Shown: positions 45,683 through 63,479 of the stretch, piece after piece | Layout: each line of letters begins with the position of its first letter | Position numbering within the stretch: position 1 is the stretch's first letter | DNA from: a virus | Taxonomy: Duplodnaviria; Caudoviricetes | Reading direction: 5' to 3' (one strand) | DNA length: 64,000 nucleotides | Virus record (IMG/VR): IMGVR_UViG_3300043391_000370 | Span: 1 to 64,000 of that record | Notes under the pieces: generated by a model | The model's database searches: none | What the model saw: only the letters and a program-made list of their open reading frames with translations | What the model was told of the DNA's origin: nothing | Made by a program: the position numbers and the translations under genes

Positions 45683-46554
45683 ACTACCTCCTTTAAGAAG
45701 TTTTCCATCGGTGATTTTTTGAATATCTCAAGTCCTTGTTCTGCCTGTTCATCAAGTTTTTTTGCATCTCTTAGAAGTTCATAAGTCTTTCTTACAAAGT
45801 CTTCATAAGGTGCAGTATTTACAGTACCTTCCATATAATCGGGAAAGTCAGTTGTTACATTTCTTTCAGAGATTACAGGCACTTTATTCTGAATTAAATG
45901 TGATACACGAATGATCTCAAAGATTTCATTATCGTGATTGTGTAAATTGATGACTAACTTTGCTCTCTTAATGAGATCATCTCGTTCATCACCATAGGTG
46001 CTTTGAACTGCAACGAAGTTGACATTCTTATCTTCGGCAAACTGATTCATAATGTTCAGTCTTCTTTGACTTGGAGACATATAGGCAAGAATATCAATAT
46101 CTCTTTCCTCTGGTTTGTTTCTTTCAAAGTATGAGATTTCTGGAACATATCCAATTTGAACATGCTTGATATTTTCTACACCTGCCTTTTGAAGTACATC
46201 AACATTTCGTTTTGAATAGTCCCATACTTCAAGACCACGATACTTACGACACCAACGCAGACATTCTGGTTGATCTCTCATCTGTTCCAAAGAATAAACA
46301 ATCGTATCTTTTGGAATGTCGTGTCTCACAACGTCCACAGGAGTATGATGCATTCCAAATACAATATTTCGTGCATTCGGATTGAAGTCATTAATACTAT
46401 TCGTTACTTCATGTCCCAATTTTTGAAGAGTAAAATAAACTGCTGCTTCAATTTCGTTAAAGACATTTGAATGAACATAGAACCCATTATCAGGCACTAT
46501 ACGGCACAAATTAAATCTCATAAATAAACTCTCCAAAGTTTTTCTTAATATCAC
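45679..46554 (-). CDS. Putative glycosyltransferase (GT-B-like)
   Basis: EVWDYS..N, DIDIL, R...I..AKLVINLH......FE..RV..L..NKV.VISE. Confidence 0.7.
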   Translation of the reverse strand: MILRKTLESLFMRFNLCRIVPDNGFYVHSNVFNEIEAAVYFTLQKLGHEVTNSINDFNPNARNIVFGMHHTPVDVVRHDIPKDTIVYSLEQMRDQPECLRWCRKYRGLEVWDYSKRNVDVLQKAGVENIKHVQIGYVPEISYFERNKPEERDIDILAYMSPSQRRLNIMNQFAEDKNVNFVAVQSTYGDERDDLIKRAKLVINLHNHDNEIFEIIRVSHLIQNKVPVISERNVTTDFPDYMEGTVNTAPYEDFVRKTYELLRDAKKLDEQAEQGLEIFKKSPMENFLKEVV

Positions 46555-47944: not shown

Positions 47945-48632
47945 ATCGTTCTCTTGGATAAAGTGCATGATAATGATCAACAGCACTATAATGAATTGAT
48001 CTTACCTTTGGTTTGTTGGTTGCTAACCACACCTCATAACAGAATCGATGCCCACCTAGTTTTTCGGTGAGACTCTCATCATAATATAAAGTTCTGTCCA
48101 ATACATTTGGAAGTGTTTTGATATAGTCGGTAGTTGCCCACCAGAAGTTTCCAGAAAAATGTGGATAGAACTCATGAGTCCAGTTCGTAGAAACTGCATC
48201 TACCTGATCATCTTCAATTTTCTGAACACAATCTTTCCACCTTTCAATTGACCAGTAGTTCATATAGTGTCTCCAGTCTTCTACAGGTGGAGAACCATAT
48301 TGTAGCATACCTTTGGAGTGAATGTAAAGGACATATCCATCATTTGTTTTTGAATATGTCTGAAGTTCTTTAAGTGTTTGCCCTTCGAAGAGATTCTCCT
48401 GTTCACCTTTTCCAGACATTACTCTAGAAGATAAAATATTTACAAAAGGAAACTTCTGTTTAATAAAGATTTTGATTTCATTTACGGCAAAATCAGGTGC
48501 GGCAAAGCACATATTAACCGTTGCCGCATCTGCCAAACCACTTGACTTTACGAGTGATAGTTGCTCTGTCACAATCTTATCCCAGGCACTATTCATGGCA
48601 CCTAGGTGATAAAATACTGCAAGTTTTTTCAT
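47931..48632 (-). CDS. Stand-alone paralog of the HxKG/GNFWW domain
   Basis: LYIHSKG...WRHYMNYW...HFSGNFWWA...RFCYEVW. Confidence 0.7.
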   Translation of the reverse strand: MKKLAVFYHLGAMNSAWDKIVTEQLSLVKSSGLADAATVNMCFAAPDFAVNEIKIFIKQKFPFVNILSSRVMSGKGEQENLFEGQTLKELQTYSKTNDGYVLYIHSKGMLQYGSPPVEDWRHYMNYWSIERWKDCVQKIEDDQVDAVSTNWTHEFYPHFSGNFWWATTDYIKTLPNVLDRTLYYDESLTEKLGGHRFCYEVWLATNKPKVRSIHYSAVDHYHALYPRERYAQL

Positions 48633-49312
48633 ACTACAATATTAGACTTAACGTGCCCCACGACTACAGTTGGATCAACAAAAACTTGATGACCATTTTG
48701 TGCGACTCTATCACACCAGTCCAGGTCTTCACCCAATGGAAGTTCATAAATGACTCCATCAACTTCCTGAACAACTTTGCCAAGACCATACCAAGGACGT
48801 TTGATACCTTCAAAGACTCCTTGCTTGACGCACATGAAACCAAGACCAACACCATAGACTGGAAATGAATCTCCGACTTGCTGAAGTAATGAGATCTCAT
48901 CTCTAGTCATCGGACGATAATCATCTTTGTTTTGATGAATCATGGCATCGGCACCTTGTGCCTCAAAATAGACACCAGAAATAATATCCTGTTCTGAACT
49001 ATAGAGTTTCAGAAAGTGCTCAGGATTCCAGACAATATCACTATCGATACAGAATAGTTTATCATAAGTGTATTGTCCTTTGCCTGGTTGAGAATTAAAG
49101 ACTTCTAACTGACGACTACCAGTAATGGTTGCTTCTCTTGCATTCGTGACAATCGAAGCATACTCATTCTGATAGTGCCAGGTCAGTCCATTTGCCTGAA
49201 GAGCCTGAATGGTTCCTAGCAAAGACTTAACATACTCCGACACCATGTTACGACCTGGTGTCGTAATGACCACATTAAAGTGTGGTTTTTGATTATTTTG
49301 ATATTTCATCAT
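48629..49312 (-). CDS. GT-A (GT2-like) glycosyltransferase
   Basis: DxD motif CIDSDIVW; GLGFM.VK.GVFE....PW; GEDL.WC; VGHVK. Confidence 0.75.
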   Translation of the reverse strand: MMKYQNNQKPHFNVVITTPGRNMVSEYVKSLLGTIQALQANGLTWHYQNEYASIVTNAREATITGSRQLEVFNSQPGKGQYTYDKLFCIDSDIVWNPEHFLKLYSSEQDIISGVYFEAQGADAMIHQNKDDYRPMTRDEISLLQQVGDSFPVYGVGLGFMCVKQGVFEGIKRPWYGLGKVVQEVDGVIYELPLGEDLDWCDRVAQNGHQVFVDPTVVVGHVKSNIVV

Positions 49313-50034
49313 AGTACGATCATTTTTTCATGTCCAACTCTAACCTTTGGATTACACCAAATCTCAAAACCATATTCCCTAAAGTCCTCACACATCGCAA
49401 CATCTTCTGAGCACATGTCCTCAAGAATAACTCCATCCTCACGAATGAGTTGAACTTTCTTTGGTGCAAACCAAGGATAAGGAATCTTCTCAAAGACACC
49501 TTTCTTCATCAGAACCCAACCAAATCCACAGTACTCAATCTTAAATGGTCCTGGTCGTCTTTGCATATCTTCAATTGTCTCAAAGTAATAAGAACCTTTG
49601 TTCATCAAAAGTTTCTTATCCATATCAACGACGACTGTGGACTGATTGGATGATGCAGTTCCATTTGATTGGACATACCAACCAGTCGAAATATCCTTAT
49701 CCATCTCAAGAAGGTCTAAGACATTCTGTGTATTGAAAACAATATCACTATCGATCCACATAATATAATCATAATTAACCTGACCTCTCCAGGGAGTCAG
49801 CATCGTTCCGGCAAAGTTATCTGCCTGCAAACAATCAGTTCGGGCAAAGTTTACCATCGAACTATAGTGTTGAGAGATGTAAAAATTGATTCCGAGTTGG
49901 TTTAAATCAAAAACCAATCGAATGAATTGTGTGAGAAATGTACCTGAATATGAACGACCCGGAAGACAGAAGGCAATTGTTTTTCCTTTAAAATCATTCT
50001 TCGGTTGATTCGAATAATTTAGCATAAATGACAA
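49309..50034 (-). CDS. GT-A (GT2-like) glycosyltransferase, paralog of 48629..49312
   Basis: WIDSDIVF; GFGWVL.KKGVFE..PYPWF; SEDV.MC; VGHEK. Confidence 0.78.
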   Translation of the reverse strand: MSFMLNYSNQPKNDFKGKTIAFCLPGRSYSGTFLTQFIRLVFDLNQLGINFYISQHYSSMVNFARTDCLQADNFAGTMLTPWRGQVNYDYIMWIDSDIVFNTQNVLDLLEMDKDISTGWYVQSNGTASSNQSTVVVDMDKKLLMNKGSYYFETIEDMQRRPGPFKIEYCGFGWVLMKKGVFEKIPYPWFAPKKVQLIREDGVILEDMCSEDVAMCEDFREYGFEIWCNPKVRVGHEKMIVL

Positions 50035-50070: not shown

Positions 50071-53000
50071 TTACCACCAGGTAATTTTAACATATCCATC
50101 CCCACCATCTCCACCGACACCAAAGGTTTGATTTTCATCTGCATATGCACCACCACCTCCACCACCTCCACGATCCCCATTACCACCATCACCGGCAATT
50201 CCTATTGAAGTTATAGAAGATGAAGATAGGGTTCCAGAAACACCAGCTGCGGCATAACCAGCAGCACCATAGGTAATTGAATTCAAAAGGTTTGTTGTGG
50301 TGGATGTTCTTGATGTCCAGGTGATCGCATCCGTGGAGAGTCTGATTACACCACCAGCACCGACTGCATAATAGATGCTGTTCAAATAACTTAATCTAAA
50401 AATTGCAGAAGTACCAAAACCTGTTGTTCTTTGTTCCCAAATGATTGTATCTGTGGATGTTCTAAGCAATCCAGCATTACCACCGGCAAAGAATACTGTA
50501 CCATAACTTACGGCATTAATGTTTGTTGTACCAAATCCTGTGGTTCTTAGTACCCAAGAAATCGTATCAGTCGAAGTGATAATAGTATTGGTCACACCGA
50601 AATAATCACTTGTTGCCGCAACATAATAATTACTATCATAAGTGAGTGCAGTAATGGACTGAACATTTGTCATAACCGTGGTTCTTAATGTCCAGGAAGC
50701 AGTATCTGCAGAAACGGCAAAGTATGCACCATTCACACCATAAGATGATAGAAGTGTCTGAGTCGATGCAGTTAGAGTTCCTGCTGCACCGGCAAGTAGG
50801 TAGTTATTATTACCATAGACTGAAGTAGAAATTGCCGTTGTACCAAATCCAGAAGTTCTTGCAGTCCATACAATACCATCAGTCGAAGTTCTACTGATTG
50901 CACTATTACCGGAAGCAACATATATTCCATCACCATAAACATAAATGATACTGTTGACATTTATCGTACCAAATCCAGTAGTTCTTGTTGTCCAGGCAAT
51001 TGCATCTGTTGAAGTTCTTAATGTTGCAGCACCACCAGCAATATAGATTGTTCCATAAGTTAATGCAAGTATACTAGAAGTACCGAATCCAGTAGTTCTT
51101 GAAGTCCAGACAATTGAGTCCGTGGATGTTCCAAGCAATCCACCATTACCACCGGCAACAAAAAGAGTTCCGGCAGTAAAGGCATTAATTTGAGTTGCAC
51201 CGAATCCTGATGTTCTTTCAGACCAGGTGATATTATCAGTAGAAGCAATCAAACTTCTAGCATTTCCAAGATAGTTGGTGCCTGTTGCAAGATTATAACT
51301 TAGTTGCGTGGTTGTAGAAGTTGTTATGGTTCCACCATAACCACCGGCAACAAGAATATTATTTGCAAAAAGTAATTGAGCACGAACGATTGATGTTCCA
51401 AAACCAGGGTTTCTTAAAGTCCAGGTGATTGCATCTGTTGAAATATTTAATCTTCCACCATCACCACCAATAACATAAAGATTATTTGCATAAAGTAAAG
51501 ACCAAATGCTTCCCCCAGTAAATCCAGAAGTTCTTAATGTCCAGGTGATTGCATCTGTTGAAGTGCCTAAAGATGGACCACCACCAATACTAGCAGCAAC
51601 ATAAAGACCATTCCCATAAACTAAAGAATAAATGATTGTTGTACCAAATCCAGAAGTTCTTTGTGTCCAGGTGATTGCATCTGTTGAAGTGTTTAAGATT
51701 GCACTATCACCAGCAGCAACATAAAGATTATTTCCATAGACTACAGAAAAAATATATGAACTACCAAAACCAGAGCAAGTTCTTAATGTCCAGGTAAGTG
51801 AGTCTGTGGATGTTGACAGATTTCCAGACTGATTTCCAGTTACATACTGATTATTTGCATAAATGATTGACCACGTTTGCGTGGCAGGTGTGGTTCGGTA
51901 TTGCCAGACAATTCCATCAGTTGAAGTATTTAAGAATCCACCATCACCACTTAGGAAATAAGTATTATTTGCATAAGTTGAAGTGATAAAATTATCAACC
52001 ATACCATTAGAAGTTCTTTGAGTCCAGGTGATAGTATCTGTTGAAGTGACTATAGTTCCACCACCACCAGCAGCAACATAAAGACCATTCCCATAAGTTA
52101 GAGCATAAATGACTGATGAACCAAATCCAGAGGTTCTTTGAGTCCAAGTACTGAATGGAACTAAAGTACCACCATTTACAGCAGTAAGAGTTTGAATATT
52201 AAGTGCGGTACTTCTAACAGTCCAGGTGATTGTATCGGTTGAAGCATTCAAAGTAACACCAGTACCAAAAGAACCAAGAATACTTTGAGGGGTTGAAATC
52301 ATTCTTCCCGTAATACCACTCATCACAAAAGTCTGATTGCCATAAACTGAAGCAGTAATTGCACTTGTACCAAATCCTGATGTTCTAAGTGTCCAAACAA
52401 TAGCATCCGTTGAAACTAATTGAGTACCCGCAACACCACCAGAAGCATAAACATTATTATTATAAACTAGAGTGTTGATGACTGATACACCAAATCCAGA
52501 AGTCTGTAGTGCCCAGTTAATTGTATCAGTTGAAGTTGTTAAGAAAGGTTGACCGATATAGTTTGTACCGGCAGCAACATAAAGAGATTCACTTGTGGTT
52601 AATGTCGTAATCGTTTGAGTATTAAGTCCAGTACTTCTGAGTGTCCAGGTGATTGTATCAGTCGAAGAACTTAGATATGCACCATTACCAAAGGAAGAAA
52701 GAACAGTATCATTTGAAGTAGTCAGAGTTCCACTTGCACCACCGGCAAAATAAATGTTATTTCCAAAAGTCAGAGCATTAATTTGTGATGTACCAAATCC
52801 AGAAGTTCTGAGTATCCAGGTTATTGCATTTGTAGAAGTTGCCGATACACCATTTACACCAACTGCCGTAAAGACTGATTGCCCATAAGTTAATCCAAGA
52901 ATATTGTTTGCACCAAATCCCGAAGTTCTTAATGTCCAGACAACTGAATCTGTAGAAGATGATACCAATCCACCATTACCACCGGCAAGATAAAGTGTTG

Positions 53001-56000
53001 CTCCATAAGAAATTGCACGAATATCTGTTGTACCAAGTCCAGAAGTTTGTACAATCCAACTGGTTGAATCACGAGAATATGTAATTGTTCCAGAGGCACC
53101 ACCAATAAGATAGAGTCCATCAACAGTTGAATATAATCCGGCATAAATTGTTGATGTACCAAAACCAGAAGTTTGTGCAGTCCAGGTGATTGTATCGGTA
53201 GAAGATGTAAGTGTTCCTGCATCACCACCAGCAATATAGATTCCTAAATCACTTGAGTAGGTTGTTTCATAAATGATTGAAGTACCAAAACCAGAGGTTC
53301 TCAATTCCCAAGTAATTCTATCCGTTGAAGTGGTTAATGTTCCAGCAGCACCACCGGCAACAAAAGATGTTCCATAGGTCAAGGCATTAATTAAAGTCGT
53401 ACCAAAACCAGAAGTTCTTAATATCCAGTTAATGGAATCAGTTGAAGTATTGATGATTCCAGCATCCCCACCGGCAATATAAAAATTATTTCCATAGGTC
53501 AAAGCATTAATTGAAGATGTACCAAAACCAGTAGTGGTTCTTGTAGTCCAAAGAGTTGAAAGTGTGGCACCGGCAGCAACATAAAGATTATTAGTATAAC
53601 CAAAAGCATTAATTGCTAGTGTCGTTCCAGAGGTTCTTTGAGTCCAAACAATATTATTAGTAGAGACTTGTAGATTTCCATTTACCGCAGAAAGGTAATT
53701 GGTTCCTGTTAGGAATGAATAAGATCCACCAGAACCTAGTGTTGTAATTTTATCCAGATTAAGAAATCCAGTAGTTCTTAATGTCCAGTTAATCGCATCA
53801 GTCGAAGCACTTATTACTCCACCATCACCAAGATTAGCAAGTGTGGTTTGTGTTGTAGATGTTAATGTGCCAGCATCACCACCATTTAGATAAGTATTGT
53901 TTCCATAAACAAGTGCTCGTATTGTGGTGCCACCGAATCCTGATGTTCTCAAAGTCCAGGTGATTGCATCTGTAGAACTGATATTTGCACCAGCAACACC
54001 AGAAGCAACATAAACTCCACTATTATGGGCAAGACCAACGAAACTTTGAATTACACCAGCAGTTCTTAATGTCCAGGCAATTGCATCTGTTGAAGTTAAA
54101 ATTGTTCCACTTACACCAGAGACAACATAAACACCAGCATAAAGAGATTGATATAATGCATTTGCGGTTCCTGATGTTCTTGCAGTCCAGGTAATTGCAT
54201 CGGTAGAAGTTTGAATCACACCGGCATTACGTGTTAAAAGATAAGTCGGTGTCGGTAAACTAGAATAATTAAGTGACTGGATAGAATTAGTAACATCACC
54301 AGATGTTCTTATAGTCCAACGAATAGCATCAGTAGAAGTAAATACTGTTACCGAACTAGTAAAAACATAAGTGGATATTGGAGAATCACCATAAGCAATT
54401 GCCACAATACTAAGAGTTGTAGCAGTTCTTTGTGTCCAGGCAATAGTATCTGTAGAAGTTCTTAAAAGTCCAGAACCACCAGATAATACATAAGGTTCAT
54501 TACCTGTAGTTGCAGAACCAGATTTTCCGGCAACATACAGAAGTCCATTACCACCAGAAGATTGACCAATAGTGGCTGCTGTTCCAGAAGTTCTAGAAGT
54601 CCAGGCAATACCATCTGTAGATACTACCAATCTTCCACCAGTACCAGCAGCAAGGAAGTTAGTACCATCATATATTGATGTATAAATTGCAGAAGTACCA
54701 AATCCAGAAGTTCTTTGATCCCAAATAATATTTGCACCACCAATAAGAATCTCACCATTAAAGAATGTTGCAGTATTAATTATAGATGGACTGGTTGATG
54801 TGGTTCTTGTAGTCCAGGCAATTGCATCTGTAGAAGTTCTGGTTGTAATATTACTGGCAGCAAGGTAAATATTATTTCCAAAGGCAAGTGTAGAAATTGT
54901 GGATGTACCGAATCCAGCAGTTCTGAGGAACCAAATTGTAGAAACAGAAGCACCTCCGGCAACGAACTCATTATTAAAGAATGTCATCGCACCAATTGCA
55001 GTCGTTCCGAATCCAGAGGTTCTAATTGCCCAGGAAATTGTATCGGTAGAAGCAGTTAAGAGTCCACCAGCACCGGCAGCAGCATAAAAATTATTACCAA
55101 ATGCAAGTGTGGCAATTGCAGAAGTACCAAATCCTGATGTTCTTTGATTCCACATCGTGGTGATTGTTGCACCACCGGCAAGATAAAGACCGTTATTATA
55201 TCCTAGTGCCGTGATTGGTTGGTTATTGGCAATACCAGGATTTCTTGATGTCCAGTTAATCGTATCCGTAGAGGCAATTATAAAACCTTCGTTTATATAA
55301 TTAGTACCACCGGCAAGATAAAAAGTATTATCAGAGAATGTTGTAGTAATGGTTTGAGTATTGATTCCTGTGGTTCTAAGTGTCCAATTGATCGTATCAG
55401 TAGAGATACTAAAGTGAGCACCATTACCAAACGAAGAAACTTGTGCATCTAAAGCAGTAGCAATTGTTCCACCACTACCAGCAGCATAGAAAGATCCAGA
55501 ATTATATAATAACTGGCCGATTGTGGATCCACCAAATCCAGAAGTCCTAGTGACCCAAGTAATTCCATCTGTTGATGTCGTAACTGTATTTGTTCCAGAA
55601 TTAACTTGACCTCCAGCAACATATACACCATTACCATAACTCAAAGTATTAATAAAGACTGTACCAAATCCTGCTGTTCTTAATGTCCAGACAATTGTAT
55701 TTGTTGAAGTGTTTAGAACTCCACCTTGCCCACCCGCAAGATAAAGATTATTTGCATAAAGTAAAGAGTTAATGTTGGAAGTACCAAATCCAGAAGAAGT
55801 TCTTGAAACCCAAGAAATTGAATCGGTCGAAACTCTAATTGTTCCACCAGCACCACTAGCAAGATAAGGATTTGGTTGCCCAGAAGCATAAATTAATCCG
55901 TTTCCAGCAGCAAAATTACCAATACCAGATGTACCAAATCCAGAAGTTCTTAAAGTCCATGCAATTGTATCTGTTGAAGTGTTTATAATTCCAGAAGTAG

Positions 56001-58251
56001 CACCAAGAAAATAATTAGTACCATCAAACATAAAAGTGTAAATAGAGGATGCACTAACTGCAGCACTTCTTAAAGTCCAGGTTATTGTATCCGTAGAAGC
56101 AATTAAAATTCCCAAAGTACCCCCGGCAAGATAGATTCCATTACCATATCCTAGTGAAAGAATACCTGATGTACCAAAACCTGAAATGGTTGTTCTTTGA
56201 GTCCAGGTGATTGAGTCTGTAGATGCTGACAGAGTTCCGGTTATTCCACCAGCAACATAAAGATTGTTGCCAAATGTAAATGCCTGGATAATGGTAGAAC
56301 CAAATCCTGATGTTCTTTGAGTCCAAAGAGTTGATACTGCAACACCAGCAGCATAATAAGTCGTACCCTTATATCCAAGAGCATTAATTGTTTGAGTAGT
56401 ACCAAAAGTTCTCAAATTCCAAGTTGATAGTCCAGATGAGAATGCTCCACCACCGGCACCACCACTACCGATGCTTCCAGTATAAGAACTTAGAATACTT
56501 GCTGCTCCATTTGTTCCGGCATTTGAACCACCAGTAACAGTATAACTATTTCCATAATAGTAAGAGGTAACACTACCACCACTATTCGTATTATAAGCAC
56601 CACCGGCACCACCAGTCGGTTGATAAGGTACTGATGGTGATGTTGCATTAATTCCAGTTCCAAGTACAGAAAGACCGGCACCACCAGCAAGACCGGCAGT
56701 TGTATAGAATGGATTTACAGTAGATGCAGTTGCCGCACCTGCTGGACCTGCCGTGACTGCCGTATCAGAAGCACCAGTACCACCGGCAGCACTTAAGGTA
56801 TAAGTAAGTGTCCCGTCAGTAATATGAGGTATTCCAGTCCAGGTTAAAGTTGTTGCGGAACCTGATGATGTACTGTTAACAACATTAAGATTACCAGTAG
56901 TGCCTACAAGATAAAGACCATTTAAGTATTCAGTTGTCCATGCAATACCATAATTCTGAACAAGTGCGGTTCTTTGTGTCCAAACTATCGTATCGGTAGA
57001 AGTCGCAACAAATCCAGTTGGTGCCGATGTAACTCCAATATTAATAGCAGCACCACCAGAAGCAACATAAACACCATTACCATAAGTTATAAACCATGTC
57101 GATGATTTACCAAACCCAGAAGTTCTATAAGTCCAGGTGATTGCATCTGTAGAAGTGGTTAGTACTCCAGCAGAACCACCGACAACATAAAGATTATTCG
57201 CAAACTTAATTGCTTTTACATCAGTATAACCAAATCCAGAAGTTCTTTGTGTCCAGGTGATTGCATCTGTTGAAGTGTTTAGAACTCCACCATTACCAAC
57301 GGCAACAAAAGATGTTCCATAAGCAAAAGTATTAATAGTTGTTGTACCAAAACCAGAAGTTCTTTGTGTCCAGGTAATCGAGTCCGTTGAAGTATTTAAG
57401 ATTCCACTATCACCACCGACAACATAGGTATTGTTTGCATAAAATGAGGTATAAATGTTTGATGTACCAAAACCAGATGAAGTTCTTAAAGTCCAGGCAA
57501 TTGCATCTGTTGAAGTTTGAATCAATCCAGAAAATCCACCAATTACAAAAATATTATTCCCATAAATGATAGACCTACTAACAGTAGTTGGTGCCGCAGA
57601 AGTTCTTAAAGTCCAAATAATTGTATCTGGAGAAGTATATATTGATACAGAAAAGGAAACATAAACACCATTACCATATGCTAATCCAAAAACAGTATTA
57701 TTAGTGGCTCTTGGTCTCCATGTAATACCATCAGTACTTACAGATAATCCACGATTTCCTGCAAGACCACGAGTACCAGGTGTTACGGTAATCGTAGAAG
57801 CACCGGCAAGTTCTGGACGACGAATGATCCAAGAAGCATAGGCACCAGAACCTCCACCGGCAGCGGCACCTAATGTACCTGTTGGTCTTCCTGCTGATCC
57901 CGCACCACCTGCACCAATTGCCTCAATATAAAGAGTCGATGCACTTTGAGGAACATAAAAGGTTTGTGCAAATGGTTGTGTAAACTCCTGAGCACCTTTA
58001 TAAGTTACTGCATTACTTGCCGATGAAGTTAATGGTTTCCAACTGGTTGAACTACTTGAATATGGTGATGTGAGTAAGGTTCCAGTACCACCACCAGAGA
58101 TTACATAATTATCCGATGTCTTTGTGGAGTATAATAAAGATGAAGTATTCGAAGTTCTGAGTGTCCAGGTGATTGAATCCGTCGAACTAAGTACTGCACC
58201 AGTTAATGGACTTGTCGCAATATAAGTATTATTGATGTAATTGATCTTCAT
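50071..58251 (-). CDS. Giant virion-associated repeat protein (2726 aa): Gly-rich scaffold plus 56 STDxxxWTxRT (Asp-box/Ycf48-like) repeats
   Basis: Repeat unit STD(A/T)I(T/A)WTxRTSGFGxxxIxxxxYGNNxYVAGG; Gly-rich domain ending GGDGYVKITWW. Confidence 0.85.
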   Translation of the reverse strand: MKINYINNTYIATSPLTGAVLSSTDSITWTLRTSNTSSLLYSTKTSDNYVISGGGTGTLLTSPYSSSSTSWKPLTSSASNAVTYKGAQEFTQPFAQTFYVPQSASTLYIEAIGAGGAGSAGRPTGTLGAAAGGGSGAYASWIIRRPELAGASTITVTPGTRGLAGNRGLSVSTDGITWRPRATNNTVFGLAYGNGVYVSFSVSIYTSPDTIIWTLRTSAAPTTVSRSIIYGNNIFVIGGFSGLIQTSTDAIAWTLRTSSGFGTSNIYTSFYANNTYVVGGDSGILNTSTDSITWTQRTSGFGTTTINTFAYGTSFVAVGNGGVLNTSTDAITWTQRTSGFGYTDVKAIKFANNLYVVGGSAGVLTTSTDAITWTYRTSGFGKSSTWFITYGNGVYVASGGAAINIGVTSAPTGFVATSTDTIVWTQRTALVQNYGIAWTTEYLNGLYLVGTTGNLNVVNSTSSGSATTLTWTGIPHITDGTLTYTLSAAGGTGASDTAVTAGPAGAATASTVNPFYTTAGLAGGAGLSVLGTGINATSPSVPYQPTGGAGGAYNTNSGGSVTSYYYGNSYTVTGGSNAGTNGAASILSSYTGSIGSGGAGGGAFSSGLSTWNLRTFGTTQTINALGYKGTTYYAAGVAVSTLWTQRTSGFGSTIIQAFTFGNNLYVAGGITGTLSASTDSITWTQRTTISGFGTSGILSLGYGNGIYLAGGTLGILIASTDTITWTLRSAAVSASSIYTFMFDGTNYFLGATSGIINTSTDTIAWTLRTSGFGTSGIGNFAAGNGLIYASGQPNPYLASGAGGTIRVSTDSISWVSRTSSGFGTSNINSLLYANNLYLAGGQGGVLNTSTNTIVWTLRTAGFGTVFINTLSYGNGVYVAGGQVNSGTNTVTTSTDGITWVTRTSGFGGSTIGQLLYNSGSFYAAGSGGTIATALDAQVSSFGNGAHFSISTDTINWTLRTTGINTQTITTTFSDNTFYLAGGTNYINEGFIIASTDTINWTSRNPGIANNQPITALGYNNGLYLAGGATITTMWNQRTSGFGTSAIATLAFGNNFYAAAGAGGLLTASTDTISWAIRTSGFGTTAIGAMTFFNNEFVAGGASVSTIWFLRTAGFGTSTISTLAFGNNIYLAASNITTRTSTDAIAWTTRTTSTSPSIINTATFFNGEILIGGANIIWDQRTSGFGTSAIYTSIYDGTNFLAAGTGGRLVVSTDGIAWTSRTSGTAATIGQSSGGNGLLYVAGKSGSATTGNEPYVLSGGSGLLRTSTDTIAWTQRTATTLSIVAIAYGDSPISTYVFTSSVTVFTSTDAIRWTIRTSGDVTNSIQSLNYSSLPTPTYLLTRNAGVIQTSTDAITWTARTSGTANALYQSLYAGVYVVSGVSGTILTSTDAIAWTLRTAGVIQSFVGLAHNSGVYVASGVAGANISSTDAITWTLRTSGFGGTTIRALVYGNNTYLNGGDAGTLTSTTQTTLANLGDGGVISASTDAINWTLRTTGFLNLDKITTLGSGGSYSFLTGTNYLSAVNGNLQVSTNNIVWTQRTSGTTLAINAFGYTNNLYVAAGATLSTLWTTRTTTGFGTSSINALTYGNNFYIAGGDAGIINTSTDSINWILRTSGFGTTLINALTYGTSFVAGGAAGTLTTSTDRITWELRTSGFGTSIIYETTYSSDLGIYIAGGDAGTLTSSTDTITWTAQTSGFGTSTIYAGLYSTVDGLYLIGGASGTITYSRDSTSWIVQTSGLGTTDIRAISYGATLYLAGGNGGLVSSSTDSVVWTLRTSGFGANNILGLTYGQSVFTAVGVNGVSATSTNAITWILRTSGFGTSQINALTFGNNIYFAGGASGTLTTSNDTVLSSFGNGAYLSSSTDTITWTLRSTGLNTQTITTLTTSESLYVAAGTNYIGQPFLTTSTDTINWALQTSGFGVSVINTLVYNNNVYASGGVAGTQLVSTDAIVWTLRTSGFGTSAITASVYGNQTFVMSGITGRMISTPQSILGSFGTGVTLNASTDTITWTVRSTALNIQTLTAVNGGTLVPFSTWTQRTSGFGSSVIYALTYGNGLYVAAGGGGTIVTSTDTITWTQRTSNGMVDNFITSTYANNTYFLSGDGGFLNTSTDGIVWQYRTTPATQTWSIIYANNQYVTGNQSGNLSTSTDSLTWTLRTCSGFGSSYIFSVVYGNNLYVAAGDSAILNTSTDAITWTQRTSGFGTTIIYSLVYGNGLYVAASIGGGPSLGTSTDAITWTLRTSGFTGGSIWSLLYANNLYVIGGDGGRLNISTDAITWTLRNPGFGTSIVRAQLLFANNILVAGGYGGTITTSTTTQLSYNLATGTNYLGNARSLIASTDNITWSERTSGFGATQINAFTAGTLFVAGGNGGLLGTSTDSIVWTSRTTGFGTSSILALTYGTIYIAGGAATLRTSTDAIAWTTRTTGFGTINVNSIIYVYGDGIYVASGNSAISRTSTDGIVWTARTSGFGTTAISTSVYGNNNYLLAGAAGTLTASTQTLLSSYGVNGAYFAVSADTASWTLRTTVMTNVQSITALTYDSNYYVAATSDYFGVTNTIITSTDTISWVLRTTGFGTTNINAVSYGTVFFAGGNAGLLRTSTDTIIWEQRTTGFGTSAIFRLSYLNSIYYAVGAGGVIRLSTDAITWTSRTSTTTNLLNSITYGAAGYAAAGVSGTLSSSSITSIGIAGDGGNGDRGGGGGGGAYADENQTFGVGGDGGDGYVKITWW

Positions 58252-58304
58252 CTATTATACACCTTTCTGTTGGAAATTATAATTCAACGGACACATTTTA
58301 ATTC

Positions 58305-58311
58305 TATTTAG
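58305..58311 (-). promoter_or_regulatory. Late-type promoter CTAAATA between the two giant genes
   Basis: Within the 83-nt intergenic gap; RBS-like AAAGGTG precedes the ATG at 58251. Confidence 0.5.
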
Positions 58312-58334
58312 ATTGATTACAAAATGGTAATATA

Positions 58335-61300
58335 CTAATATCCAGAAGTTCTCTGAGTCCAGGTAATTGTATCTGTTGAGACTGCAAAGGAACTACCTGT
58401 ATCACTTGCAATATAAAGACTATCCTTACCAACAAAGGTAATATCATCCACAGAAGAAGTTCCAAATCCAGAAGTTCTTAAGTACCAAGTAACAGTATCA
58501 ATTGAAGTAGCAATTGTTCCAGAATCACCAACAATAAAATAAGTTGCATTATAATATTTAACACCATTAATTATTGTTCCCATAGTAATTCCTGTTGCTC
58601 TTGTAGTCCAGATAATTGAATCCGTCGATGCCGCAATTATTCCAGGTCTTCTATCATAATCTGAGAACGATGCCAGATAATATTGACTTCCCAAAATAAC
58701 ATGATCTAATTGCTGTACGTTCACAGAAGAAGTTCTTAATCTCCAGGAAATTGCATCGGTGGAAACAATAATAGTGGCACCATCTCCACGATTCGTTAGA
58801 GAACTATAAGTTCCGGTAGCAACATAACCAAATGATGAAACCTGAACATAAGTATCATTATTATAAGCAATACCATTAATTATATCAGTAATACCAGAGG
58901 TTCTGGCAATCCAGATTACACCATCAGTTGAAGCAGAGTTACCACCACCACCAGAAGTTACATAAAGATTATTGGCATATAATACATTTCGAGTACCACC
59001 CGTAGCAACAGTTCTTAAAGTCCAGGTGATTGAATCTGTGGATGTTTGAATAATTCCAGCACCAGATGGAGAAATGTGTCCAGCAACATAAAGATTTGTA
59101 CCATTATAAGTTATACCATTAATTGGATATCCTGGTTGCCTATAAGCAGATGTTCTTAATACCCAAGAAACGGCATTTGTGGAAACTGCAATTGATGTAT
59201 TGCCATCAAAATCACTAAATCCACCGACAAACTTCAGACCATCATAGAAAAAGGTATTTGCATCTTGAACATTTGATACTGTGGTTCTAACAAACCAGTT
59301 AATGGTGTCTGTAGATGCCGATAAGAATGCACCATTACCTGGATTAGTGAGTGATGCATAGGTTGCCGTACCCAGAATACCAAGCTCTCCAGAAAAAATA
59401 AATTGATTATTTGCATAACTTAAAGTAAAAATATTTCGGGTTACTCCAGAAGTTCTAAGAGACCAAGTAATTGTGTCTGTTGAGATTGCTGTGCCACCTG
59501 TAGATGCACTAACAACATAAAGTCCATTATCATAAGCAAATGAATAGATAGTTGTTGAACCAAATCCAGAAGTTCTTAGTGTCCAGGTGATTGCATCTGT
59601 TGAAGTGTTTAAAGTTCCACCACCGGCACCACCAAGAATATAAGTACCGTTCTGATACAACATTCCATAGATTGTTGCACCAGTACCTGATATGCCAGCA
59701 GTTCTTAACGTCCAGGTGATAGTATCTGTCGATGTTATAATAGGTGGAATTTCACCAGATCTCCCACCACCACCAGCAACATAAAGACCATTACCATAGA
59801 TTAATCCTCGACTATCTCCAGTATTAGTAAGTCCGGTTGTTCTTAGTGACCAGAAAATTGCATTTGTCGAAACTGAAATTACACAATCATTTGCAACACC
59901 AAGAGATTCTCCAGAAACACCAGAACCAACATAAAGACCATTAACATAGATTAGTGCTCGATAAAATGCGGTTGTTCCAGAAGTTCTTTGTGTCCAGGCA
60001 ATTGCATTTGTTGAAGACGTAATGGTTCCACCCCGACCATTCAAAACATAAGTACCGGCATTATAAACAAACCCATGTATTGCACTCGTACCAAATCCAG
60101 AAGTTCTAGCAGTCCAGGTGATTGTATCCGTAGAAGCAATTAAGAGTCCACTATTGCCACCAGTAACGTAAAAACCATTCTGATAAATTACTGTTCCCAT
60201 TCCACCAAATCCAGAAGTTCTTAAAGTCCAGGCAACAGTAGGATTCAAACCACCAATCAAATAAAATCCACCACCAAAATAAACAGTATTTACAGTCTTA
60301 CCATAAGACCTAGAAGTTCTTAAAATCCAGGTGATATTATCAGTCGAAGCAGAAGTCACACCAGGAATTGAGAAATAATCAGTTCCGGAAGCAACATAAT
60401 AAGAACTCGAAGCAGTTAGTTTATCAACCTGAACCATTCCTGATGATGTGGTTCTTGTAGTCCAGGAGACTGCATCAGTAGAAACATTCAGTCTTGCACC
60501 ATTACCTAAGGTTGTTAAGATACTTGCAGATGCTGATTGAAGTCTTCCTGTGGTTCCAGAAGTTATGAAAGTATTATTACCGGCAGCAGCACGATGCATT
60601 AAAGTAACAGATTGACTTATAGTAGATGTTCTTGATATCCAAATGATTCCATCAGTTGATGTTCTTGTAGAACCTCCAGCAGTAGCAAGCACAAAAATAT
60701 TATTTGCATATACTAAATCTCTAGATATTGATGTTCCTAGTGACCCAGTTCTTAATGTCCAAGTGATTGTATCTGTGGAAGTTTGTATAATGCCATTATT
60801 ATCACTCGAAACAGTAACATAAAGATTTGAACCATTTGTACTAAGAACTGCAGTATAATTTGATGCTGCAGCAGTTCTTGCAGTCCAGTTAATCGTATCT
60901 GTGGAAACTGCAAGTGTTGTATTGGAATTATAATTACTCAGAGCAGCAAGATAAAGTGAAGAACTGGAAGTGATCGCATCTACTTGCTGAACATTCGGTA
61001 TTGAAGTTCTTATGTCCCAGGTGATATTATCAGTAGAGGTTGATAGAAGTGCTCCGTTTCCTAGATTTGTGAGTTGTGAGTATGTTGCCGTGGTTAGAGT
61101 TCCATTATCACCACCAGCAACATAAGTATTATTGCCAAAGGTTAATCCAATTATACGAGTTGAACCAAATCCAGAAGTTCTTTGTGTCCAAGTGATAGTA
61201 TCTGTTGAAATGATTAATGTTCCACTATTACCTGAAGCAACATAAAGATTATTTCCATAAAGAAACTCATATAAATTAACTGCAGTTCCAGAAGTTCTAA

Positions 61301-63479
61301 AAGTCCAGGCAATTGTATCTGTTGAAGTGGTTATAAGTCCACCATTACCACCGGCAACATAAGTATTGTTTCCATAAACTAATGATTGAATTGCATTCGT
61401 ACCAAATCCAGAAGTTCTAAATGTCCAAGTGATTGCATCTGAGGATGTTGCTAAGGTTCCAACAACACCACCAGCAACATAAAAATTATTACCAAATGTA
61501 AGTGTTTGAATATTAGTATTGCCAAATCCTGAAGTTCTATAAGTCCAAGTGATTGCATCTGTTGAAGTGGTTATAGTTCCACCCGTACCACCAGCAACAT
61601 AAAGGTTATTTGCATAAGTAATTTCAAATATACTACTTGTACCAAATCCAGAAGTTCTCTGCTCCCAAGTAATAGTATCTGTTGAAGTCGATAATACATT
61701 TGCACCAAATGCATTAGCAACATAAAGATTATTTCCATATGTTATTGCAAAAATTTCAGTTGTACCAAATCCAGAAGTTCTCAAAATCCAACTGATTGAA
61801 TCAGTCGAAGTACTTATGAGACCATTTCTTCCATTAATTGTATAAAAATTATTTGCAAAAAGGATATTACTTATTTGTTCTGCAGTTCCAGAAGTTCTTA
61901 AAGTCCAACTTACAACAAGACTTAAACCACCAACCAAATATCTACTATCATCGGCATAAAGTGAAGTAATCGCATTTCCACTCACACCAGCAGTTCTTAA
62001 AGTCCAAATGATATTATTTGTAGATACAGAAATAATACCTCCCACACCAGCATAAGTACAATTTGATGCAAGATAATATGAGGAATTAGAAGCAAAATAA
62101 TCGACTTGTGCAATACCTGATGTTGTGGTTCTTGTAGTCCAGGATACTGCATCGGTAGAAGCAGTTAGAAGAGCACCATTATCAAGAAGTCCTGATGCCG
62201 TGGTTAAAGTTCCACCACTACCACCAGCAACATAAAGATTGTTTACATAACGTAACATACTAATAAGTGATGTACCAAATCCAGAAGTTCTATAAGTCCA
62301 GGTGATTGCATCTGTTGAAGTGGTTAATCTTCCATTATCACCACCAGCAACATAAGTATTGTTTGCATAAAGTAAAGATAGAATATGTGTAGAACCAAAT
62401 CCAGAAGTTCTTAAAGTCCAGGCAATTGTATCTGTTGAAGTGTTTAGAGTTCCACCAGTACCACCTACAATATAAGTATTGTTTGCATAAAGTACGGAAC
62501 GAATCTGTGATGCACCAAATCCAGAAGTTCTTTGAGTCCAAGTGATTGAATCAGTTGAAGTGTTTAGAACTCCACTAAACCCACCAGCAACATAAAGATT
62601 ATTTGCATAAATTAAAGGAATAATAACTGTTGCACCAAATCCAGAAGTTCTTAGTGTCCAGGCAATTGAGTCTGTCGAAACTGATATTCCACCATCACCT
62701 GCAATATAATAATTACTGTTTGCATAAATTAATGATGCAATAGTTACCGAAACACCAGAAGTTCTTAGTGTCCAGGCAATTGAGTCTGTTGAAGTGTTTA
62801 GAGTTCCACCAGCACCAGCAGTAACATAAAAATTATTTTCAAAAATAATTGCTCTTATGGTACTTACACCAAATCCAGAAGTTCTTTGAGTCCAATTATT
62901 CAAAGAATCATAAAGACCACCAGCAAGAAAATATCCCTGACCAAAGACTACATCATTAATATCAACACTACCAAACCCAGAAGTTCTTAATGTCCAGGTA
63001 ATTGTATCAGTATATCCACCGGCAACAAAGTATCCATTTCCATAGGTTACGTCATTAACTGTAGTAGTTCCAAATCCTGAAGTTCTTAAAGTCCAACTTA
63101 AACTTCTATCCGTGTCACCACCGGCAAGGTAAATATTATTCCCATAAACAACATCATACAATATCGCATTTGAAGCAGACGTTCTTAAAGTCCAAGATAC
63201 TGCATCCGTAGAAGTATTTAATATTCCTGTACTACTTCCTCCAACGGCAACATAAAGATTATTGGAATAAAGGAGTCCGTTAATATTATCTGTACCAAAA
63301 CCAGCAGTTCTTAAAATCCAGACAACTCCTGGAGATGGATCAACTTGCAAAAAGGTATTAGCAGCTGCCGTTGTAACTGATGCAAATGAGGCATTATCTA
63401 CATACTCTTTGTTTACAACATCAGTAGAATTGGATACTACACTTACATCAATAACCTTATTACTGTCTAATGTTGCCAT
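58335..63479 (-). CDS. Giant repeat protein (1714 aa) with 40 WTxRT repeats
   Basis: Same repeat family as 50071..58251; N-terminus has a DVVNKEYVD fibre-type motif. Confidence 0.85.
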   Translation of the reverse strand: MATLDSNKVIDVSVVSNSTDVVNKEYVDNASFASVTTAAANTFLQVDPSPGVVWILRTAGFGTDNINGLLYSNNLYVAVGGSSTGILNTSTDAVSWTLRTSASNAILYDVVYGNNIYLAGGDTDRSLSWTLRTSGFGTTTVNDVTYGNGYFVAGGYTDTITWTLRTSGFGSVDINDVVFGQGYFLAGGLYDSLNNWTQRTSGFGVSTIRAIIFENNFYVTAGAGGTLNTSTDSIAWTLRTSGVSVTIASLIYANSNYYIAGDGGISVSTDSIAWTLRTSGFGATVIIPLIYANNLYVAGGFSGVLNTSTDSITWTQRTSGFGASQIRSVLYANNTYIVGGTGGTLNTSTDTIAWTLRTSGFGSTHILSLLYANNTYVAGGDNGRLTTSTDAITWTYRTSGFGTSLISMLRYVNNLYVAGGSGGTLTTASGLLDNGALLTASTDAVSWTTRTTTSGIAQVDYFASNSSYYLASNCTYAGVGGIISVSTNNIIWTLRTAGVSGNAITSLYADDSRYLVGGLSLVVSWTLRTSGTAEQISNILFANNFYTINGRNGLISTSTDSISWILRTSGFGTTEIFAITYGNNLYVANAFGANVLSTSTDTITWEQRTSGFGTSSIFEITYANNLYVAGGTGGTITTSTDAITWTYRTSGFGNTNIQTLTFGNNFYVAGGVVGTLATSSDAITWTFRTSGFGTNAIQSLVYGNNTYVAGGNGGLITTSTDTIAWTFRTSGTAVNLYEFLYGNNLYVASGNSGTLIISTDTITWTQRTSGFGSTRIIGLTFGNNTYVAGGDNGTLTTATYSQLTNLGNGALLSTSTDNITWDIRTSIPNVQQVDAITSSSSLYLAALSNYNSNTTLAVSTDTINWTARTAAASNYTAVLSTNGSNLYVTVSSDNNGIIQTSTDTITWTLRTGSLGTSISRDLVYANNIFVLATAGGSTRTSTDGIIWISRTSTISQSVTLMHRAAAGNNTFITSGTTGRLQSASASILTTLGNGARLNVSTDAVSWTTRTTSSGMVQVDKLTASSSYYVASGTDYFSIPGVTSASTDNITWILRTSRSYGKTVNTVYFGGGFYLIGGLNPTVAWTLRTSGFGGMGTVIYQNGFYVTGGNSGLLIASTDTITWTARTSGFGTSAIHGFVYNAGTYVLNGRGGTITSSTNAIAWTQRTSGTTAFYRALIYVNGLYVGSGVSGESLGVANDCVISVSTNAIFWSLRTTGLTNTGDSRGLIYGNGLYVAGGGGRSGEIPPIITSTDTITWTLRTAGISGTGATIYGMLYQNGTYILGGAGGGTLNTSTDAITWTLRTSGFGSTTIYSFAYDNGLYVVSASTGGTAISTDTITWSLRTSGVTRNIFTLSYANNQFIFSGELGILGTATYASLTNPGNGAFLSASTDTINWFVRTTVSNVQDANTFFYDGLKFVGGFSDFDGNTSIAVSTNAVSWVLRTSAYRQPGYPINGITYNGTNLYVAGHISPSGAGIIQTSTDSITWTLRTVATGGTRNVLYANNLYVTSGGGGNSASTDGVIWIARTSGITDIINGIAYNNDTYVQVSSFGYVATGTYSSLTNRGDGATIIVSTDAISWRLRTSSVNVQQLDHVILGSQYYLASFSDYDRRPGIIAASTDSIIWTTRATGITMGTIINGVKYYNATYFIVGDSGTIATSIDTVTWYLRTSGFGTSSVDDITFVGKDSLYIASDTGSSFAVSTDTITWTQRTSGY

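What the first reader, a model, noticed from the sequence alone, without database searches (positions are those of the whole stretch)
50071..58251. 2726-aa protein parses as a recursively nested tree of eight 7-repeat (beta-propeller-like) domains
The ~40-aa WTxRT repeats are not a linear array. Two special junction types recur. 'Entries' are places where a repeat breaks off after its Y-x-A-G-G strand and a new repeat starts at once: VAVSTLW ~56325, ATITTMW ~55150, ASVSTIW ~54931, ANIIW ~54722, ATLSTLW ~53548, TLVPFSTW ~52144. 'Returns' are places where the interrupted repeat resumes: LDAQVSSFGNGA ~55440, TQTTLANLGDGG ~53840, NDTVLSSFGNGA ~52700, PQSILGSFGTG ~52275, TTTQLSYNLATGTNY ~51295, TQTLLSSYGVNGA ~50745. 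Read as parentheses, they balance (order ( ) ( ( ( ) ( ) ) ( ) )). Counting Trp-repeats by hand at each nesting level gives 7 for every one of the 7 domains in the 50215-56437 insert. A separate 7-repeat block (56880-57745) is inserted earlier in the Gly-rich scaffold. Inference: 7-bladed propellers are inserted into loops of other propellers, up to 3 propellers deep inside the outer one, giving a branched multivalent virion adhesin. I know of no description of this recursive architecture.
Basis: partly seen in the sequence, partly recalled or inferred. Interest (0 to 1): 0.93.

Follow-up and report, generated by a model that had tools for sequence, protein, structure and literature searches.

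The report
Propellers nested inside propellers, cyanophage protein
A 2,726-residue protein in the tail-gene region of a T4-like cyanophage appears to be a glycine-rich tail-fibre-type core carrying a branching tree of seven-bladed beta-propellers, each spliced into a blade loop of another, an arrangement I could not find described anywhere.

Summary
The ORF at 50071-58251 (minus strand) has 57 repeats of about 40 residues with a short Asp-box (S-T-D-x-x-x-W). Read as brackets they balance, and all seven groups in the large insert have exactly 7 repeats (0 of 2,000,000 random placements do).

Eleven family proteins contain 23 discontinuous "parent" groups. Twenty-two sum to 7, in eight different partitions. 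Nearly every group has six Asp-boxes plus one Asp-box-less first strand, the signature of a closed Asp-box propeller.

AlphaFold2 gave one leaf confidently: a closed 7-bladed propeller (Z 31.9) whose limits match an entry and a return. Nesting therefore rests on sequence grammar and comparison, not on a confident 3D model.

The whole tree sits in loops of a Gly_rich_2 scaffold related to phage minor tail proteins, so a virion-borne multivalent adhesin is the likeliest role (inferred).

The gene is also the C-terminal part of a split architecture shared with the upstream 1,714-residue gene. Earlier notes of this scan flagged the same stretch, and an untested note reported a single propeller-in-propeller insertion in a bacterial enzyme.

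The parts
50071..58251 (-). Whole ORF, 2,726 aa (P0001)
58054..58251 (-). aa 1-66: strands 1-3 of one blade, the W strand of repeat #1, then strands 1-3 of a last blade. These complete the 6-repeat root propeller of the upstream 1,714-aa protein.
   Evidence: Collinear with unsplit relatives P0005 and P0011.
57742..58053 (-). Gly-rich scaffold, part 1 (..YKGAQEFT..FYVP..YIEAIGAGG.. to ..NRGLS)
   Evidence: Collinear with the contiguous Gly_rich_2 domains of P0009 and P0029.
56842..57741 (-). Block B: seven repeats (#2-8) inserted in a scaffold loop that is uninterrupted in P0009
   Evidence: Marginal DUF6242 and Kelch_1 hits.
56443..56841 (-). Gly-rich scaffold, part 2
56344..56442 (-). Outer propeller P0, fragment a (repeat 9: velcro W strand plus strands 1-2 of blade 1)
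55453..56343 (-). Leaf propeller P1 (repeats 10-16)
55171..55452 (-). P0 fragment b (return linker, repeats 17-18)
54955..55170 (-). P2 fragment a (repeats 19-20)
54739..54954 (-). P3 fragment a (repeats 21-22)
53836..54738 (-). Leaf propeller P4 (repeats 23-29)
   Evidence: AF2 pLDDT 60-80.
53566..53835 (-). P3 fragment b (return linker, repeats 30-31)
52696..53565 (-). Leaf propeller P5 (repeats 32-38), the one confidently modelled
   Evidence: AF2 pLDDT 80-93. VIA Z 31.9, rmsd 2.3 A over 280 residues to the 7-bladed 2z2n_A, model range 471-755.
52279..52695 (-). P3 fragment c (return linker, repeats 39-41)
52168..52278 (-). P2 fragment b (return linker, repeat 42: W strand and strand 1 of a 'TNY' blade)
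51301..52167 (-). Leaf propeller P6 (repeats 43-49), inserted in loop 1-2 rather than loop 2-3
50761..51300 (-). P2 fragment c (rest of the split TNY blade, repeats 50-53)
50194..50760 (-). P0 fragment c (return linker, repeats 54-57)
50071..50193 (-). Gly-rich scaffold, part 3 (Gly run .. GDGYVKITWW, stop)
58252..58334 (-). 83-nt spacer between the two giant genes, with CTAAATA (58305-58311) and a purine-rich ribosome-binding site before the ATG
58335..63479 (-). Upstream partner gene, 1,714 aa (P0002): scaffold N-terminal segment plus a second nested tree ( ( ( ) ( ) ) ( ) )

Best explanation
The protein is a phage tail-fibre-type glycine-rich (Gly_rich_2) core whose loops carry beta-propellers of the short-Asp-box kind. 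One plain 7-bladed propeller sits in an early loop. A late loop carries an outer 7-bladed propeller (P0). Further complete 7-bladed propellers are spliced into P0, usually into the loop between strands 2 and 3 of a blade and once into loop 1-2. The tree is P0 > {P1, P2}, P2 > {P3, P6}, P3 > {P4, P5}.

Each inserted propeller starts with a W strand that has no Asp-box. This strand closes that propeller's own last blade (1+3 'velcro' closure). The propeller ends with strands 1-3 of that blade. A linker of about 10 residues then hands the chain back to strand 3, the Asp-box and strand 4 of the interrupted parent blade.

Shown: the junction grammar, the counts, their conservation with varying partitions in relatives, one leaf fold, and the split scaffold.

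Inferred: closure of the parent rings in three dimensions. Also inferred: that the assembly, together with the upstream 1,714-residue protein that shares a propeller and the scaffold's N-terminal segment with it, is a late-expressed, virion-borne, multivalent carbohydrate- or surface-binding fibre.
For: Junctions and counts:
- Junctions and counts in P0001.
- Random placement of the junctions gives all-sevens in 0 of 2,000,000 trials.
- Virtual splicing of each truncated repeat to the six residues before the resumed Asp-box restores repeats of normal length, 37-40 aa. A distinctive 'TNY' blade is split exactly across leaf P6.

Comparison with relatives:
- There are 23 parent groups in 11 proteins. 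Twenty-two have 7 blades, in eight different partitions. The 23rd has 6 and is completed by P0001 aa 1-66.
- Nearly every group, parent or leaf, shows '-AAAAAA': six s-Asp-boxes and an Asp-box-less first strand. This is the n-1 rule described for closed Asp-box propellers (PMC2716378).
- The positional ortholog P0011, with the same downstream gene order, is a strictly linear five-level nest.

Structure prediction:
- AF2 models leaf P5 at pLDDT 80-93. Its strand order is 4/1/2/3/Asp-box, which places the entries in loop 2-3. That paper names loop 2-3 as the variable loop of Asp-box blades.
- VIA-align matches model residues 471-755 to 7-bladed propellers at Z 31.9, rmsd 2.3 A, 280 residues. That range runs from an entry to a return.

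Scaffold and context:
- The scaffold is contiguous in P0009 and P0029, where Pfam calls Gly_rich_2.
- The compact scaffold of P0011 hits PHROG minor tail proteins 356, 416 and 754.
- Neighbouring genes encode the baseplate hub, tail proteins and tail fibres of a T4-like cyanomyovirus.
- CTAAATA lies 60 nt upstream of the start.
- Solved phage adhesin tips (Pam3 gp24, S16 gp38) use a glycine-rich lattice whose distal ends form a less conserved tip proposed to bind the receptor (PMC9608196).
Against: - No confident 3D model of any parent propeller was obtained. The P3 fragments had pLDDT 25-65 and the model's pTM was 0.43.
- A blade-by-blade orthology test between spliced parents and an uninterrupted propeller at the same scaffold site was not diagonal.
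- P0001 itself has no Pfam or PHROG hit. The leaves reach only marginal DUF6242/Kelch scores.
- No homolog was found in cultured-phage records beyond weak BNR-type matches, so no virion proteomics can be cited.
- If every bracket-parse group has 7, the total number of leftover repeats is automatically a multiple of 7. Counts alone therefore do not exclude other ways of grouping the leftover fragments; the junction types do that work.
Confidence: 0.75

Rival explanations
1. The chain is a linear string of propellers. 'Entries' and 'returns' are only unusual inter-propeller linkers, and propellers form from consecutive repeats.
For: Many more distant family members are plain arrays of 7-repeat blocks, for example P0020, P0045 and P0050. 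Tandem Asp-box propellers are known (GH74, PMC2716378).
Against: The runs between junctions in P0001 are 1,7,2,2,2,7,2,7,3,1,7,4,4 repeats, and fragments of 1-4 blades cannot close alone. The Asp-box-less starter strands sit at repeats 9, 10, 19, 21, 23, 32 and 43, which has no period of 7. The modelled leaf P5 occupies repeats 32-38, out of phase with any consecutive parse starting at repeat 9.
Confidence: 0.04
2. The leaves are real inserted propellers, but the leftover fragments do not form intramolecular 7-bladed parents as bracketed. They instead pair between subunits of an oligomer (domain-swapped rings) or form an open or irregular beta-sheet scaffold.
For: The parent fragments were modelled with low confidence. 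The root propeller of the upstream protein must in any case be completed in trans by this protein's N-terminus, so trans complementation of blades occurs in this family. Phage fibres with glycine-rich tips are trimers (PMC9608196).
Against: Single-child relatives (the P0005 modules, P0223, P0239) have exactly one truncated blade and one return, and 2+5 or 3+4 blades, which is what intramolecular closure needs. The '-AAAAAA' pattern holds for parents defined by the bracket parse. A split TNY blade is restored only by the bracketed partner.
Confidence: 0.13
3. The nested architecture is the same, but the protein is not a receptor-binding virion fibre. It could be a non-virion protein acting during infection, or a decoration or glycan-shield protein that is the substrate of the adjacent glycosyl- and methyltransferases.
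For: There is no direct evidence that it is in the virion. A cluster of glycosyltransferase, DUF8361 and methyltransferase genes follows the giant gene here and in two related contigs. The repeats are very rich in Ser and Thr. PMC2716378 concludes that Asp-boxes are structural, not ligand-binding.
Against: The scaffold matches minor tail protein families. The gene lies among tail and baseplate genes on the same strand. A late-promoter-like motif precedes it. Relatives in Atlas clusters combine Gly_rich_2 with Peptidase_S74, the tail-fibre chaperone domain.
Confidence: 0.3

Closest known systems
Asp-box / short-Asp-box beta-propellers interrupted by an inserted domain ('type 2' organisation, e.g. 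Vibrio cholerae sialidase; Quistgaard & Thirup 2009, PMC2716378)
   Same: The repeats carry the S/T-x-D/N-x-x-x-W motif in the strand 3-4 hairpin, with n-1 Asp-boxes per ring. The propeller blades are interrupted by a foreign domain yet the ring is presumed to close. The variable loop 2-3 is the insertion site.
   Different: Here the inserted domain is itself a full propeller of the same family, and the insertion is repeated recursively: three levels below the outer ring here, four in P0011. None of that paper's four organisational types covers this.
Glycine-rich receptor-binding tips of phage tail fibres (Salmonella phage S16 gp38, cyanophage Pam3 gp24) and the ALK/LTK glycine-rich domain; Pfam Gly_rich_2 (PF21722)
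   Same: The core has runs of glycine alternating with beta segments and ends in G-D-G-Y-V-x-I-x-W. Relatives hit PF21722 and PHROG minor tail proteins. The gene lies in a phage tail region. In the solved tips the distal ends of the glycine-rich loops form a less conserved tip proposed to bind the receptor (PMC9608196).
   Different: The variable positions carry whole propellers or propeller trees instead of short loops. No sequence match to any solved chain was found, so the polyglycine-lattice fold is assumed, not shown.
Multi-propeller proteins with tandem or interlocked rings (GH74 xyloglucanases, Aip1, DDB1/CPSF160, LRP2)
   Same: Several propellers lie in one chain with velcro closures. 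These are the top Foldseek matches to the model.
   Different: From my own knowledge, those rings are consecutive along the chain, with at most a terminal strand exchanged. They are not complete rings spliced into blade loops of other rings.
Ycf48/Hcf136-like and DUF6242 seven-bladed propellers
   Same: They are 7-bladed, with blades of about 40 residues. They are the nearest structural clusters to the ESM Atlas model of relative P0223. There are weak DUF6242 Pfam hits.
   Different: Those are single or tandem propellers with no nesting. The Pfam scores here are at or below the cut-off.

Membership tests
Short-Asp-box beta-propeller superfamily | Repeated S/T-x-D/N-x-x-x-W/F/Y motif, once per blade of about 40 residues | tested here: met
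   50 of the 57 W positions in P0001 are preceded by the motif. The exceptions are the seven starter strands of the seven groups in the large insert. The consensus is taken from PMC2716378.
Short-Asp-box beta-propeller superfamily | The motif lies in the hairpin between strands 3 and 4 of a four-stranded blade | tested here: met
   DSSP of the confident leaf P5 in the AF2 model gives the order strand 1, 2, 3, motif, W strand. This is a predicted structure, not a solved one.
Short-Asp-box beta-propeller superfamily | Closed propeller fold with velcro closure and at most n-1 Asp-boxes | tested here: met
   For leaf P5: Z 31.9, rmsd 2.3 A, 280 of 293 residues of 2z2n_A. The '-AAAAAA' pattern holds in nearly all 44 groups parsed. 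For the parents the fold itself was not confidently modelled.
Pfam BNR (PF02012) / PSII_BNR (PF14870) | Score above the Pfam gathering threshold | tested here: not met
   No hit for P0001. The leaves give only DUF6242 at 29.1 bits (cut-off 29) and one Kelch_1 motif.
Gly_rich_2 (PF21722) phage/bacterial glycine-rich domain | Pfam model match over the domain | tested here: inconclusive
   P0001 gives no hit because the domain is cut into three pieces. Relatives with contiguous copies do hit: P0009 at 3.6e-8 and P0029 at 1.8e-6. The three P0001 pieces are collinear with them by inspection.
Phage minor tail / tail fibre proteins with a glycine-rich tip | Homology to annotated tail protein families | tested here: met
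   The compact scaffold of positional ortholog P0011 hits phrog_356 (2e-8), phrog_416 and phrog_754, all 'minor tail protein'. P0223 hits phrog_754. P0001 itself has no PHROG hit.
Phage minor tail / tail fibre proteins with a glycine-rich tip | Polyglycine-II lattice fold; presence in the virion | not testable with these tools
No proteomics data were available.
Domain-inserted ('type 2') propeller | Fragments on both sides of the insert form one ring | tested here: inconclusive
   The parent fragments had pLDDT 25-65. The counts and junction grammar support it.

The most novel reading that the evidence does not exclude
Propeller-in-propeller insertion is a generative, recursive grammar in this cyanophage protein family. 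A complete 7-bladed ring can be spliced into loop 2-3 (or 1-2) of any blade of another ring. Different phages have used this to build linear five-level nests (P0011), four-level nests at another scaffold loop (P0029) and branched trees (this window, 14 rings over two genes). All hang from one small glycine-rich adhesin core. One ring has even been cut between two genes, so it must re-form from two polypeptides. That would make this the deepest known natural domain nesting and a natural test bed for how discontinuous repeat domains fold.
Probability: 0.6. Interest if true: 0.85.

Novelty: new variant of a known kind. Interest (0 to 1): 0.75.

Why it matters
Domain insertion is common, but from my own knowledge nesting beyond one or two levels is rare. 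I found no description of a propeller spliced into a propeller, let alone recursively, in the held literature.

If the parents really close, about 1,900 residues separate strands of the same blade in the outer ring. That raises sharp questions about co-translational folding of discontinuous repeat domains.

It would also show how a phage can multiply binding modules on a single compact fibre tip without lengthening the fibre. This is a different route to host-range breadth from swapping tips. The rapid re-wiring of the tree between related phages (linear, branched, different scaffold loops) points to an evolvable cassette mechanism.

For marine and freshwater cyanophage ecology, it marks a hypervariable candidate for a host-recognition determinant. 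That determinant is absent from cultured-phage records.

Tried and rejected
- AF2 of the single-child module of relative P0005 (L007:8634-10445) with a curated 20-row alignment A2 gave pLDDT 29. It carries no information in either direction.
- AF2 of aa 1095-2000 used a pseudo-alignment of whole homologs (A1) because no collinear homolog set existed. The parent fragments came out at low confidence.
- The Foldseek 'pdb' search returned only generic multi-propeller proteins. The VIA list was filled by leaf P5, so the parent was not tested.
- The blade-orthology matrix of spliced parents against an uninterrupted propeller at the same scaffold site showed no diagonal signal. Blades are too homogenised, and the TNY blade follows the insert rather than holding a fixed position.
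- A regex-only bracket parser produced false returns from long loops and was abandoned. The HMM parser misses some W strands in distant relatives: 41 of 56 closed groups came out as 7, and most of the rest contained a gap. I therefore used a curated, script-verified table.
- Sequence searches of solved structures returned only designed Ika/Tako propellers for the leaves and nothing for the scaffold.
- megablast and tblastn against cultured phages gave nothing or weak BNR hits.
- The ESM Atlas model of P0223 (pTM 0.43) has Ycf48/DUF6242 neighbours, but the aligned ranges cannot settle nesting.
- Literature searches for nested or inserted propellers found nothing relevant.
Full report
**What is there.**
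The window is the tail and baseplate region of a T4-like cyanomyovirus. PHROG hits identify the baseplate hub, tail proteins and tail fibres. The best tail-protein matches are Synechococcus phages S-SRM01 and S-SKS1 and Prochlorococcus phage P-SSM2. The record is an 81.7-kb viral contig estimated to be 38% complete. The finding covers one intact ORF of 2,726 aa on the minus strand (P0001). Directly upstream lies a related ORF of 1,714 aa (P0002).

**Checking the observation.**
- Anchoring on W-x-x-R/Q-T gives 57 repeats. Most are 38-44 residues long and read S-T-D-x-I-x-W-T-x-R-T-S-G-F-G ... Y-G-N-N-x-Y-V-A-G-G-x-x-G-x-L.
- Six repeats stop after 26-34 residues, just after the 'YVAGG' strand. 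Each is followed by a W strand with no S-T-D before it. Six others are 57-66 residues long because about 17 residues ending G-N-G-A-x-x-x precede the next S-T-D.
- HMMs built from the junctions of both giant proteins separate junctions from ordinary repeats without overlap.
- Read as brackets, the order is (() ). Every one of the seven groups holds exactly seven W strands. With the same bracket word and random junction positions, this happened in none of 2,000,000 trials.
- DNA copies of the repeat are 60-80% identical, so the pattern is old and is not an assembly artefact.

**What kind of repeat.**
The motif S-x-D-x-x-x-W is the 'short Asp-box' described by Quistgaard & Thirup. They place it in the loop between strands 3 and 4 of a propeller blade. 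They report at most n-1 Asp-boxes per ring, and loop 2-3 as the highly variable end of the blade (PMC2716378). Pfam gives nothing for P0001 and only borderline DUF6242/Kelch hits for single leaves. The nearest solved sequences are designed propellers at weak E-values.

**Structure prediction.**
- I folded aa 1095-2000, the predicted P3 ring with its two children P4 and P5. No collinear homolog set exists, so the alignment was a blade-level pseudo-alignment.
- The model has mean pLDDT 65.5 and pTM 0.43. P5 is confident (80-93), P4 is moderate (60-80), and the three P3 fragments are poor (25-65).
- VIA-align against 48,161 chains matches model residues 471-755 to 7-bladed propellers. The best match has Z 31.9, rmsd 2.3 A and 280 of 293 residues of 2z2n_A.
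- That range begins at the Asp-box-less W strand after an entry and ends at strand 3 of the repeat before a return.
- DSSP in this confident part gives the order W strand (4), strand 1, strand 2, strand 3, Asp-box. An entry therefore falls in loop 2-3, and the new ring begins with the strand that will close its own last blade.
- This rules out an in-phase linear parse and fixes what entries and returns mean for a leaf.
- A second job, on the simpler single-child module of relative P0005 with a curated alignment in which all junctions aligned, failed completely (pLDDT 29).
- No parent ring has therefore been seen in a confident model.

**Comparative evidence for the parents.**
- The database search found 125 long relatives, many carrying Gly_rich_2. 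A second search found shorter ones.
- I parsed eleven proteins and verified the parse by script.
- They contain 23 discontinuous groups. Twenty-two have seven blades, split as 1+2+4, 2+1+4, 2+2+3, 4+3, 3+4, 2+5, 1+6 or 2+3+2.
- Twenty of 21 leaves have seven blades. One leaf in P0002 has six.
- Because the partitions differ while the sum stays fixed, the seven is a structural constraint, not an inherited layout.
- In nearly every group, parent or leaf, the first W strand lacks the Asp-box and the other six have it. This is exactly the n-1 pattern of a velcro-closed Asp-box ring.
- Joining each truncated repeat to the six residues before the resumed Asp-box restores a repeat of 37-40 residues.
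- The blade that follows a return is always a special type (…G-T-N-Y…). In one place that special blade is itself cut after strand 1 by leaf P6 and continues after P6's return. Its two halves match intact TNY blades.
- P0011 sits in a contig with the same downstream genes and is the positional ortholog. It is a strictly linear five-level nest. P0029 is a four-level nest at a different scaffold loop. The P0005 family (about 17 members) has two single-child modules.
- A caveat: once all bracket groups are 7, the leftover fragments would total a multiple of 7 under other groupings too. The junction types, not the counts alone, argue for the bracketed pairing.
- A blade-orthology matrix meant to add independent support showed no signal.

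**The scaffold and the split.**
- The N-terminal (aa 67-170), middle (471-603) and C-terminal (2687-2726) non-repeat pieces are collinear with contiguous Gly_rich_2 domains in P0009 and P0029.
- The seven-repeat block and the 49-repeat tree are therefore insertions into two loops of that domain.
- The compact scaffold of P0011 matches three PHROG 'minor tail protein' families.
- Solved phage adhesin tips (Pam3 gp24, S16 gp38) and ALK share a glycine-rich lattice whose distal ends form a less conserved tip proposed to hold the receptor-binding sites (PMC9608196). No sequence link to a solved chain was found, so that fold is an analogy.
- Following a lead from earlier notes of this scan, I confirmed the split. 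P0002's root ring has only six W strands and ends at …R-T-S-G-Y. P0001 begins with strands 1-3 of the next blade, one more W strand and a last three-strand blade.
- Relatives P0005, P0011 and P0239 have this ring in one piece, followed by the same S-W … Y-K-G-x-x-E-F-T scaffold segment.
- The 83-nt spacer holds CTAAATA and a ribosome-binding site. From my own knowledge CTAAATA resembles the late-promoter motif reported for cyanomyoviruses; this was not tested.
- The unit is thus a two-chain assembly of 4,440 residues and 14 rings.

**Function.**
Nothing was tested directly. The arguments for a late, virion-borne, multivalent binding fibre are:
- the position among tail genes;
- the tail-protein homology of the scaffold;
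- the promoter-like motif;
- Atlas clusters that combine Gly_rich_2 with the tail-fibre chaperone domain Peptidase_S74;
- the analogy to glycine-rich adhesin tips.

I put this at roughly even odds against other roles. The conserved downstream cluster of glycosyltransferases and a DUF8361-methyltransferase may modify these Ser/Thr-rich proteins or the host surface.

**Novelty.**
- Propellers interrupted by other domains are known (the 'type 2' Asp-box organisation).
- An earlier, untested note of this scan reports one propeller spliced into a galactose-oxidase-type propeller.
- Full-text searches found no description of recursive propeller nesting.
- I class the finding as a new variant of known kinds (Asp-box propeller, glycine-rich phage tail tip). 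The architecture is unusually striking, but its key structural claim still awaits a confident model or an experiment.

Noticed in passing
window 58054-58425: The two giant genes split one propeller. The 1,714-aa protein's root ring has 6 W strands and stops at ..RTSGY. The 2,726-aa protein starts with the next blade's strands and supplies the 7th W strand. The scaffold's N-terminal segment (..VVNKEYVD..FLQVD) also lies in the upstream protein. Relatives P0005, P0011 and P0239 are unsplit.
   Followed up: partly
window 58252-58334: The 83-nt spacer between the giant genes carries CTAAATA 60 nt before the ATG, plus an AAAGGTG ribosome-binding site. Three of the four CTAAATA copies on this strand lie within 60 nt upstream of a gene start.
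   Followed up: partly
window 62162-62915 (P0002 aa 189-440): One inserted leaf has only six repeats and a shorter return linker (53 aa). It is apparently a 6-bladed child among 7-bladed ones.
   Followed up: no
window 51301-52278: Leaf P6 is inserted after strand 1 (loop 1-2) of a 'TNY' blade, not after strand 2 like the other five. This looks like an independent insertion event.
   Followed up: partly
P0001 repeats 17, 30, 39, 42/49 and 54; P0002 repeats 11, 20, 24, 33 and 37: The blade right after every return is a distinct type (RTT..Q.I.., then G-T-N-Y or S-D-Y and a longer strand 3). It may pack against the base of the inserted ring or be part of the inserted cassette.
   Followed up: no
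window 44651-50034; L005 12174-18128; L007 10608-15562: A cluster follows the giant gene in the same order in this window and in two related contigs. It comprises GT-like genes of about 230 aa, DUF8361 genes, a DUF8361-Methyltransf_24 fusion and glycosyltransferases.
   Followed up: partly
G000:C1 about 63516-68000 (runs off the window): Two smaller paralogs (open frames of about 600 and 900 aa) have the same Gly-rich scaffold and plain, un-nested 7-repeat inserts. Both are small enough to fold whole.
   Followed up: no
P0123 aa 610-787 (L016): A 1,083-aa relative carries, besides a child propeller, a non-propeller domain of about 180 residues and unknown family inserted between blades 5 and 6 of its parent ring.
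   Followed up: no
P0032 aa 487-1085: The innermost bracket of this relative holds 14 repeats. It is either two rings whose junctions have decayed beyond my detectors or a tandem pair. Unresolved.
   Followed up: no
L002 1-2252; P0239 C-terminus: The IMG/VR relative L002 reads through the Gly-rich part only with frame changes. P0239 ends in an out-of-character hydrophobic tail. Both look like frameshifts or assembly errors in the Gly-rich region.
   Followed up: no
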